Positions 46,545-49,133 of a DNA stretch of 52,325 nucleotides are shown piece after piece. The first letter of the stretch is position 1; the number at the start of each line of letters is the position of its first letter. The DNA is taken from assembly GCA_965603295.1 (NCBI GenBank), contig CBFDCL010000002.1:1-52325 (forward strand), written 5' to 3'. The notes beneath the pieces are model-generated. The model was not told where the DNA came from. It saw nothing but the letters and a program-made list of their open reading frames with translations, and ran no database searches. Position numbers and translations under genes: made by a program. This stretch comes from an uncultured bacterium. GTDB lineage: Bacteria > BMS3Abin14.

Positions 46545-49133
46545 ATGAAGATGTCAGGCAGGAAAAGGAACAAGGCAGCCTCGGAGGTCCGGGACGGGGG
46601 CGAACATTATGGACTGGAACTGAGGCTCAAAAACCAGGGCCTGATCGGGGTCAGCGGGAAAGTACCGATCAAGGACGCTTCGGCTCTCAGCCTCCTTTAC
46701 ACTCCCGGGGTAGCCGCCCCGTGCCTGGAAATCGCTCGGTCCCCCATCCGTTCCTTCGACCTGACCTGCAGGGGAAACACCGTTGCCCTGATCAGCGACG
46801 GTTCCTCCGTCTACGGTCTCGGCGGTGCGGGTCCCGAATCGGCCCTGGCCATGCTCGAAGGGCGGTCTGTTTTTTTTAAGACCTTTGCCGGAGTGGATGC
46901 TCTGCCCATAGCCATCAAAACCCAGGATCCGGAAGAGATCGTCGAGATCGGCCTCCGCCTGGCCACTAGTTTCGGGGGGATCGTTCTCGAGGATATCGCC
47001 GCGCCAAAGTGTTTTACCCTGGAACGGAATCTCAAACTGGCCACGAGGATCCCGGTCTTTCACAACGACCAGCACGGGACCGCCATCACTGTCTACGCTG
47101 CCCTGATCAACGCCCTTAAAGTCGTCGAGAAAAAACTCGAAAAGGTGCGGATCGTCATCTCCGGTGCGGGTGCGGCGGGCATTGCCACGGCCAGGCTCCT
47201 TCTCGAAGCCGGCGCAAAGGACATTATCCTGTGTGACCGTTACGGTTCCATCTACAGGTATCGGACCCAGCCCCTGAACTGGGCCAAATCCGAGGTCTCC
47301 CTAAGGACGAACCTTGATCGTCGTGTGGGGAGCCTGGGGGACATGATGGTCGGGGCCGATGTTTTTGTAGGTCTTTCCGCTCCGGGGATCGTTTCCGCGG
47401 ATATGGTCCGGAGCATGGTTAAAGGGGCGGTTGTCTTTGCCATGGCCAACCCCGTGCCCGAGATCATGCCGGGCGAGGCTTTAAAGGCCGGAGCCGCGGT
47501 GGTGGGATCGGGAAGGTCCGATTTTCCCAATGAGATCAACTCGGCGGACATTGCCCCCGGGATCTTCAGGGGACTGTTGGATGTCCGTGCGTCAAGGATC
47601 ACGGAGACCACCTATCTTGCTGTCGCGCGAACCATCGCCGGGATGGTGCCGGAGGACAAGATCAACCCCAACTTCATCTTCCCGCGGATGTTCGATTTCC
47701 AGGTGGCGGCTAAGGTCGCCCGAACCACCGCCCAGACCGCCATTGAGAACGGGGACGCCAGGGTGGAGGTTTCCCCGGATGAGGTGGAGGCCAAAACACG
47801 GAAGATCGTATACGAAAACGAGTACACAGTTCTCCCTCCTCCCCCGCCCAGGAAGAAGAATATGAACATGCAGGAGGAGGCTATCGACCTTCATCACCGG
47901 TACCAGGGGAAGCTGGAGGTCCGTGTCAAGGTCCCCATCCGTGACGATTACATCCTGAACCGGGTTTACCTCCCTCCGGAAGCCGCCGAGGCCAGTATTC
48001 TTCTGTCACGGGAACCCGAGAAGGTCTACGACCTGACATGCAAGGCCAACCTGGTGGCCATCGTATCCGACGGAAGCGCTGTCCTCGGACTGGGGAATAT
48101 CGGTCCCAGGGCCGCCATCCCCGTAATGGAGGGAAAGGCTGTCATCTTCAGGGCGTTCGCCGGGGTGGAGGCGTTCCCGATCTGCGTCGGCACCCAGGAC
48201 GTGGACGAGATTGTCCATCTGGTCAAGGCTATCTCCACTACTTTCGGAGGGGTTAACCTCGAGGACATCTCCGCGCCGCGATGTTTCGAGATCGAGGAAC
48301 GTCTTAGAAAGGAGATCGACATCCCGATCTTCCACGACGACCAGCACGGTACGGCCGTGGTGACCCTGGCCGCTCTGAAGAATGCCCTTAAGGTCGTGGG
48401 CAAGGATCTCCCCGATGTCAGGATAACCATGGCCGGCGCGGGGGCCGCCGGGATCGCCGTGGCGAAAATCCTGCTGGTTGCCGGTGCCCGTGACATTATT
48501 TTGTGTGACGAGCACGGAACGATCTTCGAGGGAAGGGGAGAGAAGATGAACCGGGTGATGGAGGAGATCTCCCTCGTTACCAACCGGGAGGGGATCAAGG
48601 GGGATCTGGCTGCTGCAATGACAGGGGCCGATGTTTTCATCGGCCTGTCGGCAGGGGGGATCGTGAGCCGGGACATGGTCCGGAGCATGGGCGAAAGGGC
48701 CGTTGTTTTCGCCATGGCCAACCCGGTGCCCGAAATCATGCCGGAGGAAGCCCGGGCGGGAGGGGCGGCAGTAGTGGCCACCGGCCGTTCCGATTTTCCC
48801 AACCAGGTTAACAATTCCATGGTATTCCCGGGGGTCTTCCGCGGGGCTCTCGATGTCAGGGCCCGGAATATCAACGTCCAGATGAAGATCGCGGCGGCCG
48901 AGGCCATTGCCGGTTTCGTGGGGGAGAAGGATCTTTCCCCCGATTACATCATCCCCGCGGCGATGAACTTCAAGGTGCCCGCCTTCGTGGCCGCGGCGGT
49001 GGCCAGGTCTGCCATGGAAACAGGGGAGGCGAGGGTCCGCGTTTCCCCCGACGATGTGGTGGCCCAAACCCTCGAATACCTGTATGAAGGACACCTGAGA
49101 TACATCAAGGGAGCGTTAGAGGAAACGAAATGA
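46545..49133 (+). CDS. Tandem (double) malic enzyme: two fused MaeB-like ME units, no PTA domain
   Basis: Each half has SDG..V.GLG, EG[RK], LEDI, H[ND]DQHGT, GAGAAG, FAMANPVPEI, GRSDFPN; Pro-rich linker near 47833-47861; second unit starts near M440. Confidence 0.93.
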   Translation: MKMSGRKRNKAASEVRDGGEHYGLELRLKNQGLIGVSGKVPIKDASALSLLYTPGVAAPCLEIARSPIRSFDLTCRGNTVALISDGSSVYGLGGAGPESALAMLEGRSVFFKTFAGVDALPIAIKTQDPEEIVEIGLRLATSFGGIVLEDIAAPKCFTLERNLKLATRIPVFHNDQHGTAITVYAALINALKVVEKKLEKVRIVISGAGAAGIATARLLLEAGAKDIILCDRYGSIYRYRTQPLNWAKSEVSLRTNLDRRVGSLGDMMVGADVFVGLSAPGIVSADMVRSMVKGAVVFAMANPVPEIMPGEALKAGAAVVGSGRSDFPNEINSADIAPGIFRGLLDVRASRITETTYLAVARTIAGMVPEDKINPNFIFPRMFDFQVAAKVARTTAQTAIENGDARVEVSPDEVEAKTRKIVYENEYTVLPPPPPRKKNMNMQEEAIDLHHRYQGKLEVRVKVPIRDDYILNRVYLPPEAAEASILLSREPEKVYDLTCKANLVAIVSDGSAVLGLGNIGPRAAIPVMEGKAVIFRAFAGVEAFPICVGTQDVDEIVHLVKAISTTFGGVNLEDISAPRCFEIEERLRKEIDIPIFHDDQHGTAVVTLAALKNALKVVGKDLPDVRITMAGAGAAGIAVAKILLVAGARDIILCDEHGTIFEGRGEKMNRVMEEISLVTNREGIKGDLAAAMTGADVFIGLSAGGIVSRDMVRSMGERAVVFAMANPVPEIMPEEARAGGAAVVATGRSDFPNQVNNSMVFPGVFRGALDVRARNINVQMKIAAAEAIAGFVGEKDLSPDYIIPAAMNFKVPAFVAAAVARSAMETGEARVRVSPDDVVAQTLEYLYEGHLRYIKGALEETK

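What the first reader, a model, noticed from the sequence alone, without database searches (positions are those of the whole stretch)
46545..49133. Single-chain double malic enzyme with reciprocally degenerate active-site halves
Seen: unit 1 keeps the tyrosine loop (Y52-TPGV) but has Arg for the catalytic Lys (EGR107), HND for HDD (N174), GLGGAG for GLGNIG and NEINS for NQVNN. Unit 2 keeps EGK531, EDI, HDD (598-599), GLGNIG and NQVNN, but its tyrosine loop is distorted (Y475-LPPEA). Both keep GAGAAG. Established, from recall of small prokaryotic ME structures (Phytoplasma ME, Bdellovibrio MaeB): the enzyme is a dimer and the catalytic Tyr is donated by the partner subunit. Inference: the fusion is a pseudo-heterodimer with one composite active site (Tyr from unit 1, Lys/metal site from unit 2) and one dead site that may be allosteric, replacing the PTA regulatory domain of MaeB. 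I know of no description of this architecture.
Basis: partly seen in the sequence, partly recalled or inferred. Interest (0 to 1): 0.85.

Follow-up and report, generated by a model that had tools for sequence, protein, structure and literature searches.

The report
Fused double malic enzyme, one canonical site
This gene fuses two copies of a small malic enzyme into one protein, and across well over a hundred relatives the first copy always keeps the catalytic tyrosine loop while the second keeps everything else, so the two halves most likely build one standard active site between them; I found no paper that describes this enzyme design.

Summary
Window 46545-49133 (+) encodes an 862-aa protein, probably 860 aa from the ATG at 46551.

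The fusion is not an artefact. At least 117 homologues of 835-906 aa have the same architecture. It is the only ME gene in this 98.8%-complete genome and is single-copy in 15 of 16 species genomes of its phylum.

The asymmetry is conserved:
- Unit 1 has YTPGV in 118/118 sequences.
- Unit 2 has K531, D598, D599 and N-Q-x-N-N in 118/118, but its tyrosine loop is YLPP.

Published structures show that small MEs donate the catalytic Tyr to the partner subunit. AlphaFold2 gives a compact model (pTM 0.91). A related 710-730-aa family has deleted unit 1's NAD domain yet keeps YTPGV in 113/115 sequences.

One composite canonical site is therefore well supported. The second site is not shown to be dead: it keeps its metal ligands and Rossmann motif and is fixed within this clade. 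A regulatory role and 'replacing the PTA domain' remain speculation. I rate it a new variant of a known enzyme kind.

The parts
46545..49133 (+). Tandem (double) malic enzyme gene, 862 aa including stop. The probable true start is the ATG at 46551, giving 860 aa.
   Evidence: ORF; two PF00390 plus PF03949 sets; start-codon context; the 860-aa database copy P0002.
46602..47816 (+). Unit 1 (aa 20-424): a complete small-ME fold, proposed Tyr donor with a remodelled pocket ('site B' core).
   Evidence: 51% identity to unit 2; pLDDT above 90; conservation 0.727 versus 0.779 for unit 2, and 79% versus 76% identity within the close clade.
46659..46778 (+). Unit 1 crossover arm (aa 39-78, from the GK motif to the GN motif). 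It carries the catalytic Tyr loop Y52-T-P-G-V (46698-46712).
   Evidence: YTPGV in 118/118 homologues. Five of the 13 positions conserved only in unit 1 lie in aa 35-77. The arm swap in solved structures is described in PMC7902834 and PMC11944484.
46857..46865 (+). Unit 1 'Lys motif', E105-G-R107. Arg stands in place of the catalytic Lys; Glu is invariant.
   Evidence: R in 35/35 sequences of this clade and K in 81/83 of the others.
46986..46997 (+). Unit 1 LEDI (E149, D150): metal-ligand positions retained.
   Evidence: E149 and D150 in 118/118.
47061..47072 (+). Unit 1 H-N174-D175-Q, in place of HDDQ.
   Evidence: N174 in 105/118; position 175 is D in 57 and H in 57. Within the clade, N174 in 32/35 and D175 in 33/35.
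47163..47180 (+). Unit 1 Rossmann motif GAGAAG (aa 207-212).
   Evidence: G207, A208 and G209 in 118/118.
47529..47543 (+). Unit 1 NEINS (aa 329-333), in place of NQVNN.
   Evidence: E330 in 35/35 and S333 in 35/35 within the clade.
47817..47867 (+). Inter-unit linker, aa 425-441 (NEYTVLPPPPPRKKNMN).
   Evidence: Lowest internal pLDDT, about 70, and no secondary structure; sequence.
47868..49100 (+). Unit 2 (aa 442-852): canonical catalytic core of a small ME.
   Evidence: Best matches to solved small MEs: 5cee E = 6e-124; Foldseek on 5cee gives TM 0.97 and rmsd 1.3 A over 388 columns.
47967..47981 (+). Unit 2 altered Tyr loop, Y475-L-P-P-E.
   Evidence: Y in 113, L in 109, P in 110 and P in 118 of 118 sequences; YLPP in 35/35 within the clade.
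48129..48137 (+). Unit 2 E529-G-K531 (catalytic Lys).
   Evidence: 118/118.
48258..48269 (+). Unit 2 LEDI (E573, D574 metal ligands).
   Evidence: 118/118.
48333..48344 (+). Unit 2 H597-D598-D599-Q.
   Evidence: 118/118.
48435..48452 (+). Unit 2 Rossmann motif GAGAAG (aa 631-636). The cofactor loop D655-E-H-G follows at 48507-48518.
48801..48815 (+). Unit 2 NQVNN (aa 753-757).
   Evidence: N753, Q754, N756 and N757 in 118/118.
49130..50587 (+). GlcD-type FAD-linked 2-hydroxyacid dehydrogenase. Its start overlaps the ME stop codon (ATGA).
   Evidence: Pfam FAD_binding_4 plus FAD-oxidase_C; TIGR00387 at 484 bits, below the 568 cutoff. It lies directly downstream of the double ME in 7 of 8 relatives of the phylum where the downstream DNA is visible, and also in L096.
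50541..51938 (+). Fe-S / CCG-domain subunit (GlcF/LdhH-like), overlapping the end of the GlcD-type gene.
   Evidence: Pfam CCG x2 plus Fer4; NCBIfam hits below cutoff. A terminator-like hairpin lies at 52201-52226.

Best explanation
The gene encodes a single-chain pseudo-heterodimer of two small malic-enzyme units that arose by one ancient duplication and fusion.

As in solved small-ME homodimers, each unit probably sends a crossover arm into the other (unit 1 aa 39-78, unit 2 aa 462-502). This would give two composite sites.

Site A is fully canonical. It combines Tyr52 on the YTPGV loop of unit 1 with the following from unit 2: Lys531, the metal ligands E573/D574/D599, D598, N726, N756/N757 and the Rossmann motif at 631-636. 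Site A carries out the NAD(P)-dependent oxidative decarboxylation of L-malate to pyruvate, or the reverse reaction. This is the only malic enzyme of the organism.

Site B combines Tyr475 on a re-specified YLPP loop of unit 2 with the following from unit 1: R107, E149/D150, N174, D175, N302, N329, E330, N332, S333 and GAGAAG at 207-212. It lacks the Lys/Asp pair and the NN pair, so it is probably not a standard ME site. It is nevertheless strictly conserved within the clade and likely still binds metal and/or dinucleotide. Its role may be structural or regulatory.

Shown here: the sequence pattern, its conservation, the single origin, the sole-copy status and a compact AlphaFold2 model.

Inferred: the intramolecular arm swap, catalysis at site A only, and any role for site B.
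For: 1. Two complete ME units lie in one ORF, and all motifs are verified.
2. In 118 aligned double MEs, unit 1 has Y-T-P-G-V in 118/118. Unit 2 has E-G-K, E-D, H-D-D and N-Q-x-N-N in 118/118 but Y-L-P-P in place of the Tyr loop. Unit 1 has N at 174 in 105/118 and a degenerate NQVNN.
3. An unbiased scan gives the same picture. Of 13 positions conserved only in unit 1, 5 lie in the arm. Of 46 positions conserved only in unit 2, none lies in the arm; they cover GLGNIG, K531, D599, N726 and QVNN. Fisher p = 2.6e-4.
4. Published structures show the Tyr acting in trans in this ME class (PMC7902834, PMC11944484).
5. The AlphaFold2 model has mean pLDDT 91.9 and pTM 0.91 for the whole 862-aa chain. 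One unit superposes on the entire swapped protomer of 5cee with TM 0.97 and rmsd 1.3 A.
6. Unit 1 is under purifying selection: conservation 0.727 versus 0.779, and 79% versus 76% identity in the close clade. Site-B residues are fixed in 32-35 of 35 clade members.
7. There are natural deletion variants. A family of 323 proteins has lost the Rossmann domain, Lys and metal ligands of unit 1. Of these, 115 are 690-740 aa long. They keep YTPGV (113/115) or YSPGV (2/115) in unit 1, while unit 2 has HDDQHG in 114/115 and no canonical Tyr loop in 0/115.
8. In the tree all unit 1s form one clade and all unit 2s form one clade (support 95). Together they sit on one side of a branch with support 99, and the two subtrees have matching topology.
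9. It is the only ME homologue in a 98.8%-complete genome and is single-copy in 15 of 16 species genomes of the phylum.
Against: - There is no biochemical or structural experiment on any member.
AlphaFold2 may simply reproduce the ME dimers in its training set.
- Intra-chain pairing of units cannot be told apart from inter-chain pairing (unit 1 of chain A with unit 2 of chain B).
- Site B in this clade is only mildly altered: Lys to Arg, Asp to Asn and Asn to Ser, with Tyr475 retained. From my own recall of the Ascaris ME work, a Lys-to-Arg mutant kept part of its activity, so residual or different catalysis at site B is not excluded.
- One 50%-identity cluster representative (P0123, 860 aa) has no Tyr at either loop position. 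The rule is therefore not absolute.
Confidence: 0.75

Rival explanations
1. Both composite sites are catalytic. Site B (Y475 plus the unit 1 core) would be a second active site, slower or altered. It might differ in cofactor or substrate, or act only as an oxaloacetate decarboxylase. The protein would then be a bifunctional or two-speed enzyme rather than one live site plus one silent site.
For: Site B keeps Tyr475 (113/118), E149/D150 (118/118), D175 or H175, N329 (118/118) and GAGAAG. In this clade it also keeps N302 and N332, and all its altered residues are fixed. The cofactor loops of the two units differ: DRYG in unit 1 and DEHG in unit 2.
Against: The Asp that partners the catalytic Lys is Asn in 105/118, the NN pair is lost, and the Tyr loop has Pro where Gly is required in all canonical MEs (G55 versus P478, both at least 95% conserved). 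Related short forms dispense with the whole unit 1 pocket.
Confidence: 0.13
2. The chains pair homotypically (unit 1 with unit 1', unit 2 with unit 2'), forming two ordinary homodimer-like modules. Unit 2 would then be active with its own Y475 loop, and unit 1 would be an appended regulatory or scaffold module.
For: Y475 is retained in 113/118 sequences. The tools cannot distinguish oligomeric arrangements.
Against: This does not explain why YTPGV is invariant in the unit whose own pocket is degenerate, nor why the loop is re-specified to YLPP in the unit whose pocket is invariant. It also fails for the short forms, where unit 2 has no Tyr loop at all (0/115) and the only YTPGV is in the truncated unit 1. 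AlphaFold2 packs the two units of one chain together with pTM 0.91.
Confidence: 0.06
3. Unit 1 is a decaying relic of a recent duplication, or the fusion is an assembly or gene-calling artefact.
For: None found. Unit 1 is slightly less conserved than unit 2 across the whole family (0.727 versus 0.779).
Against: The same architecture is seen on more than 100 independent contigs, including closed 2.0-2.8 Mb genomes. Unit 1 is as conserved as unit 2 in the close clade. There is a single ancient origin with co-diverging halves.
Confidence: 0.02

Closest known systems
Small ('minimal') prokaryotic malic enzymes, 380-440 aa arm-swapped homodimers (PDB 5cee Phytoplasma, 2a9f, 1vl6/2hae Thermotoga, 1ww8/2dvm Pyrococcus, 3nv9 Entamoeba)
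   Same: Each unit has this fold: TM 0.86-0.97 and 45-49% identity. It has the same Tyr, Lys, metal and NQVNN motifs, and the active site is built from two protomers with Tyr in trans.
   Different: Here the two protomers are one polypeptide and are no longer equivalent. Only one of the two composite sites is canonical.
Hybrid malic enzymes MaeB (ME domain plus C-terminal PTA-like regulatory domain; PDB 6zng, 6znj, 9krw)
   Same: It is a long (over 750 aa) bacterial ME in which a small-ME catalytic domain carries an appended non-catalytic enzyme-derived module. The ME domain is arm-swapped with Y52' in trans.
   Different: This protein has no PTA_PTB domain, and NCBIfam PRK12861 scores 646 bits against a cutoff of 1178. 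The appended module is a second ME unit, placed N-terminal. In the tree the units do not group with MaeB ME domains. Acetyl-CoA control is not implied.
Duplicated-and-fused enzymes in which one half became non-catalytic or the halves kept complementary parts: mammalian hexokinase I, eukaryotic phosphofructokinase, and fused two-domain ThyX (my own knowledge; ThyX also from scan note e1-1467163)
   Same: The same evolutionary logic applies. An oligomeric enzyme with interface active sites is duplicated and fused, and this is followed by complementary loss, so that fewer sites remain per chain.
   Different: These are unrelated folds and chemistries. For malic enzymes I found no such case described.
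Plant mitochondrial NAD-ME alpha/beta heteromers, including C4 forms with a non-catalytic beta subunit (my own knowledge, not checked here)
   Same: A malic enzyme works as a heteromer of paralogues, one of which contributes little or no catalysis.
   Different: The polypeptides are separate and belong to the large eukaryotic ME class, where each subunit owns its Tyr. There is no split active site.

Membership tests
Malic enzyme superfamily, small prokaryotic class | Pfam malic (PF00390) and Malic_M (PF03949) domains above gathering score | tested here: met
   134 and 120 bits against cutoffs of about 23; two stretches each.
Malic enzyme superfamily, small prokaryotic class | Fold of solved small MEs | tested here: met
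   Foldseek on the AF2 model: 5cee TM 0.97 and rmsd 1.3 A; 2hae TM 0.95; 1vl6 TM 0.92. phmmer against 5cee gives 6e-124.
Malic enzyme superfamily, small prokaryotic class | Full catalytic set: Tyr loop YTPGV, Lys in EGK, metal ligands E, D, D, the Asp before the metal Asp, and the NN pair | tested here: met
   The set is met only as a composite of Y52 (unit 1) with K531, E573, D574, D598, D599 and N756/N757 (unit 2). Neither unit has the whole set by itself.
Malic enzyme superfamily, small prokaryotic class | Arm-swapped dimer with Tyr acting in trans | tested here: inconclusive
   AlphaFold2 gives a compact two-unit body with pTM 0.91, and one unit matches a whole swapped protomer. No coordinates were available, so no distance could be measured.
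Malic enzyme superfamily, small prokaryotic class | Malate oxidative decarboxylation activity | not testable with these tools
   Requires an enzyme assay. Indirect support: it is the only ME homologue in the genome.
Hybrid malic enzyme MaeB | C-terminal PTA-like (PF01515) domain; NCBIfam PRK12861 above cutoff | tested here: not met
   There is no PF01515 hit in the protein. PRK12861 scores 646 bits against a cutoff of 1178, and only its ME part (positions 4-421 of 764) is matched.
Large malic enzyme (SfcA/MaeA, PRK13529) | NCBIfam NF010052 above cutoff | tested here: not met
   173.7 bits against a cutoff of 326.
Malolactic enzyme | NCBIfam NF041582 above cutoff | tested here: not met
   98.7 bits against a cutoff of 850.
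   The window protein sits in a clade of 35 sequences of at least 70% identity marked by R107, D175, E330, N332 and S333.

The most novel reading that the evidence does not exclude
Tandem malic enzymes would be an unrecognised fourth architectural class of prokaryotic ME, beside the small, large and MaeB-hybrid classes. In this class an obligate arm-swapped homodimer was converted by duplication and fusion into a single-chain heterodimer with one catalytic site. The second, strictly conserved pocket would have been re-purposed as a built-in sensor for metal, dinucleotide or a dicarboxylate that tunes the live site. Nature also shows the next step: a 710-730-aa class in which the donor unit is pared down to the dimerisation domain plus the Tyr arm.
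Probability: 0.3. Interest if true: 0.78.

Novelty: new variant of a known kind. Interest (0 to 1): 0.62.

Why it matters
Malic enzymes sit at the pyruvate/malate node and are textbook enzymes. Prokaryotic forms are currently sorted into small, large and MaeB-hybrid types. A widespread fused form, in which two halves have kept complementary parts of a split active site, would matter in three ways:

- It would correct the blanket annotation 'NADP-dependent malic enzyme' for hundreds of database entries. That label implies a MaeB-like protein and, for this clade, perhaps the wrong cofactor.
- It would provide a natural, phylogenetically replicated experiment on how domain-swapped homodimers evolve into asymmetric single chains with a spare pocket available for regulation.
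- It would give a clean system for half-of-sites and allostery studies, because the two sites can be mutated independently in one gene.

For this organism it is the only malic enzyme, and it lies in an operon with a 2-hydroxyacid dehydrogenase.

Tried and rejected
- **Genome-contig scan.** The scan with the family alignment was swamped by ordinary single small MEs. All 80 loci carried matches of about 400 aa. I used them only as an outgroup.
- **Stand-alone unit 1.** A possible stand-alone unit-1-like gene (P0171) turned out to be a fragment at a contig end.
- **Reversed-order fusion.** P0133 appears to have a Tyr-less catalytic unit first and a dead YTPGV unit second. It is a single cluster on one contig, and its nearest relatives are ordinary ACT-ME proteins. 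I treat it as anecdotal, not as evidence.
- **Rfam.** A scan of the 415-nt region upstream of the gene found nothing credible.
- **Literature.** Five searches found no description of tandem, double or fused malic enzymes. Subscription journals are not covered.
- **dN/dS.** I did not attempt it, because at about 75% protein identity synonymous sites would be saturated. I used amino-acid conservation instead.
- **Covariation.** I judged covariation-based contact analysis unreliable with about 120 sequences and did not run it.
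Full report
**1. What is in the sequence**

Window 46545-49133 (+) is an intact ORF of 862 codons. Pfam finds the malic-enzyme N-terminal domain and the NAD-binding domain twice each. Residues 1-430 and 431-862 align end to end at 51% identity, E = 3e-131.

- Unit 1: Y52-TPGV, E-G-R107, H-N174-D175, GLGGAG, NEINS.
- Unit 2: Y475-LPPE, E-G-K531, H-D598-D599, GLGNIG, NQVNN.
- GAGAAG occurs in both units.

Both units keep LEDI, so unit 1 still has all three metal-ligand positions (E149, D150, D175).

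The better start codon is probably the ATG at 46551 (Met3). It lies 7 nt after GGGAGGG, and the public copy of this protein is 860 aa.

**2. Not an artefact, not a relic**

A word-indexed search returned 8000 candidates. Of the best 120, nearly all are double MEs of 835-906 aa. The exceptions are the 726-aa partial P0037 and the 658-aa P0070. Identities are 53-86%. The hits come from JGI, ENA, NCBI and Logan assemblies, including closed genomes of 2.0-5.0 Mb. The few that carry a name are called 'NADP-dependent malic enzyme', in NC10, Nitrospinae, Deltaproteobacteria/Desulfobacteraceae and a cyanobacterial-labelled MAG.

The window's own genome is 2.30 Mb and 98.8% complete. It has no other ME homologue. 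Its phylum holds only 16 species genomes in one family. Fifteen of them, including all 10 high-quality ones, carry the double ME as a single copy.

Unit 1 is not under relaxed selection. Entropy-based conservation is 0.727 against 0.779 for unit 2. Within the window's clade unit 1 is 79% identical on average and unit 2 is 76%.

**3. The asymmetry is the conserved feature**

Counts in the 118-sequence alignment:

| Feature | Unit 1 | Unit 2 |
|---|---|---|
| Tyr loop | Y-T-P-G-V, 118/118 | Y (113) L (109) P (110) P (118), variable fifth residue |
| Lys motif | position 107: K 81, R 35 | E-G-K, 118/118 |
| Metal pair E-D | 118/118 | 118/118 |
| H-D-D | N at 174 in 105/118; position 175 is D 57, H 57 | 118/118 |
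| N-Q-x-N-N | degenerate | 118/118 |

I also ran a scan that did not use the known motifs. It found 13 positions at least 95% conserved only in unit 1. Five of them lie in the crossover arm (aa 35-77). It found 46 positions conserved only in unit 2. None lies in the arm. They cover the GLGNIG region, K531, D599/Q600, N726 and QVNN. The arm enrichment has Fisher p = 2.6e-4. G55 against P478 is a fixed difference between the two Tyr loops.

**4. Why that pattern means one composite site**

- For the Entamoeba enzyme, a prokaryote-type small ME, the YTPGV motif of one chain lies next to Lys120 of the other. The inter-chain Tyr65 OH to Lys120 NZ distance is 2.8 A. The entangled segment runs from a GK motif to a GN(F) motif (PMC11944484).

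The window protein has these boundary motifs: G38-K39 and G77-N78 in unit 1, and K462 and A501-N502 in unit 2. The Glu of the Lys motif, which that paper says hydrogen-bonds to the partner's GK segment, is invariant in unit 1 even where the Lys is gone.

Given Tyr in trans, the only combination that yields a complete site is the unit 1 arm with the unit 2 core. That is exactly the combination that is invariant.

**5. Structure prediction**

AlphaFold2 with the 118-sequence alignment gives mean pLDDT 91.9 and pTM 0.91 for the whole chain. Only the termini and the 425-441 linker are weak. A pTM this high for a two-unit chain means the relative placement of the units is predicted with confidence.

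Foldseek superposes one unit on the entire swapped protomer of the Phytoplasma enzyme 5cee: 388 columns, TM 0.97, rmsd 1.3 A. The arm therefore projects from its own core as in the crystal dimer.

This remains the main gap. AlphaFold2 may also be recalling the dimers it was trained on.

**6. Natural deletion experiments**

The exhaustive search of 50%-identity cluster representatives turned up further fused forms. P0122 (853 aa) and P0125 (812 aa) repeat the pattern, and unit 1 of P0125 has diverged to 23% identity.

A series of 660-730-aa proteins has only one Malic_M domain. Alignment shows a clean deletion of unit 1's Rossmann domain, roughly residues 177-330 of the window protein. The Lys and the metal ligands are also lost, while the N-terminal domain with YTPGV and the C-terminal helices remain. 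Their unit 2 has MEGK, LEDI and FHDDQHGTA but no Tyr loop.

One such family has 323 members. Among 115 members of 690-740 aa:
- YTPGV is in unit 1 in 113 (YSPGV in the other 2).
- No Y[TS]PG[VI] occurs after residue 250 in any of them.
- HDDQHG occurs only in unit 2, in 114.
- There is exactly one GAGAAG-type motif.

In these proteins the donor unit cannot be an enzyme, yet it keeps the tyrosine loop. This is the strongest comparative support for the Tyr-donor reading.

There are exceptions. P0123 (860 aa) lacks Tyr at both loop positions, and P0176 lacks both Tyr and HDD.

**7. Origin**

I built a FastTree of 135 units. All full-length unit 1s form one clade. The single intruder, P0171, is a fragment cut off at a contig end. 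All unit 2s form one clade (support 95). Unit 1s and unit 2s together lie on one side of a branch with support 99, apart from single small MEs and MaeB ME domains. The two subtrees share the same groupings.

This indicates one duplication and fusion within a small-ME lineage, followed by co-divergence. It does not indicate descent from MaeB. Some short forms cluster elsewhere, near MaeB. They may be independent events or long-branch effects, and I leave that open.

**8. The second site**

'Dead' is too strong for this clade. Across the 35 sequences of at least 70% identity the site-B residues are fixed: R107 35/35, E149 and D150 35/35, N174 32/35, D175 33/35, Q176 35/35, N302 35/35, N329 35/35, E330 35/35, N332 32/35, S333 35/35, and the YLPP arm 35/35.

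Other clades show a different but equally stereotyped set, K-N-H-Q-D, in 47 sequences.

The pocket therefore looks re-specified rather than decayed. It lacks the Asp that partners the catalytic Lys and also the NN pair, so standard ME chemistry is unlikely. Metal and dinucleotide binding look plausible. Whether it is structural, regulatory or weakly catalytic cannot be decided here. The short forms show that it is dispensable for the basic design.

**9. Context and physiology**

The ME stop codon overlaps the start of a GlcD-type FAD dehydrogenase. That gene in turn overlaps an Fe-S/CCG subunit. Terminator-like hairpins lie at 46504-46527 and 52201-52226.

GlcD follows the double ME in 7 of 8 relatives of the phylum where downstream DNA is visible, and in an 83%-identical metagenomic relative. 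The latter also shares the upstream genes Pta, aminotransferase and PdxA. A LarA-family racemase (44837-46129) lies upstream here and in four relatives.

Double MEs of other clades have unrelated neighbours. The architecture is therefore not tied to this operon.

The likely role here is the malate/pyruvate step of a 2-hydroxyacid (lactate/malate) node. This is inference.

**10. Comparison, novelty and verdict**

Each unit is a bona fide small ME. The protein is not a MaeB: it has no PTA domain and scores below the NCBIfam cutoff. It is also not a large ME or a malolactic enzyme.

Conceptually it parallels hexokinase I, eukaryotic PFK and fused ThyX, which are duplication and fusion cases with complementary loss. 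I found no paper describing tandem or fused MEs in 8.4 million searchable texts, nor in the two recent MaeB structure papers. Subscription journals are not covered.

Earlier notes of this scan reached the same reading for relatives in other genomes. They are not independent evidence. I re-derived each point here and added the unbiased position scan, the single-origin tree, the clade-level fixation of site B and the Rossmann-deleted short family.

Verdict:
- It is unproven for the 'dead, allosteric, PTA-replacing' part.
- This is a new variant of a known enzyme kind, of solid interest to enzymologists and readily testable.

Noticed in passing
window 44837-46129 (+): A LarA-family nickel-pincer racemase homologue lies upstream of the ME. 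Its best NCBIfam matches are malate racemase LarAH6 (343.5 bits, cutoff 500) and the 2-hydroxyacid racemase LarAH10 (343.2 bits, cutoff 540). Both score higher than lactate racemase LarA (247 bits, cutoff 460), but all are below cutoff, so the substrate is undetermined. It is present upstream of the double ME in 4 of the relatives examined and replaced or preceded by a periplasmic binding protein in others.
   Followed up: partly
window 46130-46544, hairpin 46504-46527 (+): A 415-nt non-coding gap lies between the racemase gene and the ME gene. It ends in a strong terminator-like hairpin (10 bp, 7 G-C) with a T-run, immediately before the ME ribosome-binding site. No Rfam family matches. It could be the racemase terminator or a leader/attenuator of the ME operon.
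   Followed up: partly
window 39892-43503 (+): A stand-alone phosphotransacetylase (PTA_PTB, 353 aa), a class I/II aminotransferase and a PdxA-family dehydrogenase precede the ME block. The same Pta, aminotransferase, PdxA, double ME, GlcD, Fe-S order is found in an 83%-identical metagenomic relative that lacks the binding-protein and racemase genes. It is curious that a free PTA gene sits near an ME that lacks the PTA domain of MaeB. I did not test for any functional link.
   Followed up: no
window 48507-48518 (unit 2, D655-E-H-G) versus 47235-47246 (unit 1, D231-R-Y-G): The loop after the second Rossmann strand of the catalytic unit is D-E/I/V-x in this clade but D-[TS]-K in 73 of the 83 other double MEs. 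From memory, D-[ST]-K is the loop of NADP-dependent MaeB and YtsJ. The catalytic unit here may therefore prefer NAD+, contrary to the database name. Unit 1 keeps a conserved D-R-Y.
   Followed up: partly
proteins P0126, P0129-P0132, P0136-P0139, P0148, P0154, P0156, P0178, P0187, P0272-P0390 (not in the window): These form a 660-730-aa 'mini-donor' class of fused MEs, in which unit 1 has lost its NAD-binding domain but keeps YTPGV. Many members sit on 2.2-2.6-kb contigs that hold only this gene, and they have an AT-rich amino-acid make-up. This suggests transcripts or gene-sized chromosomes of anaerobic protists, but one is labelled archaeon. The origin was not determined.
   Followed up: partly
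protein P0133 (848 aa, not in the window): This is a single high-GC cluster with the reverse order. An N-terminal region of about 90 aa is followed by a catalytic ME unit whose Tyr loop is lost (SAAAG). A second unit then has YTPGV but has lost Lys (LEGL), metal ligands (LATV), HDD (GDWVG) and GAGAAG (GDGAIV). If it is real, it would be an independent, mirror-image case of the same complementary split. It rests on only one contig.
   Followed up: partly
protein P0142 (738 aa) and P0262 (873 aa), not in the window: Other unusual ME fusions appeared among the cluster representatives. One is glycerate kinase (PF02595) fused to a small ME. The other is a 460-aa N-terminal extension, carrying a cyclic-nucleotide-binding domain, fused to a small ME.
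   Followed up: no
window 27877-34571 (+): A TamB/AsmA-like gene (1321 aa) is followed by a BamA/Omp85 gene with four POTRA hits. This indicates a diderm cell envelope for this candidate-phylum organism.
   Followed up: no
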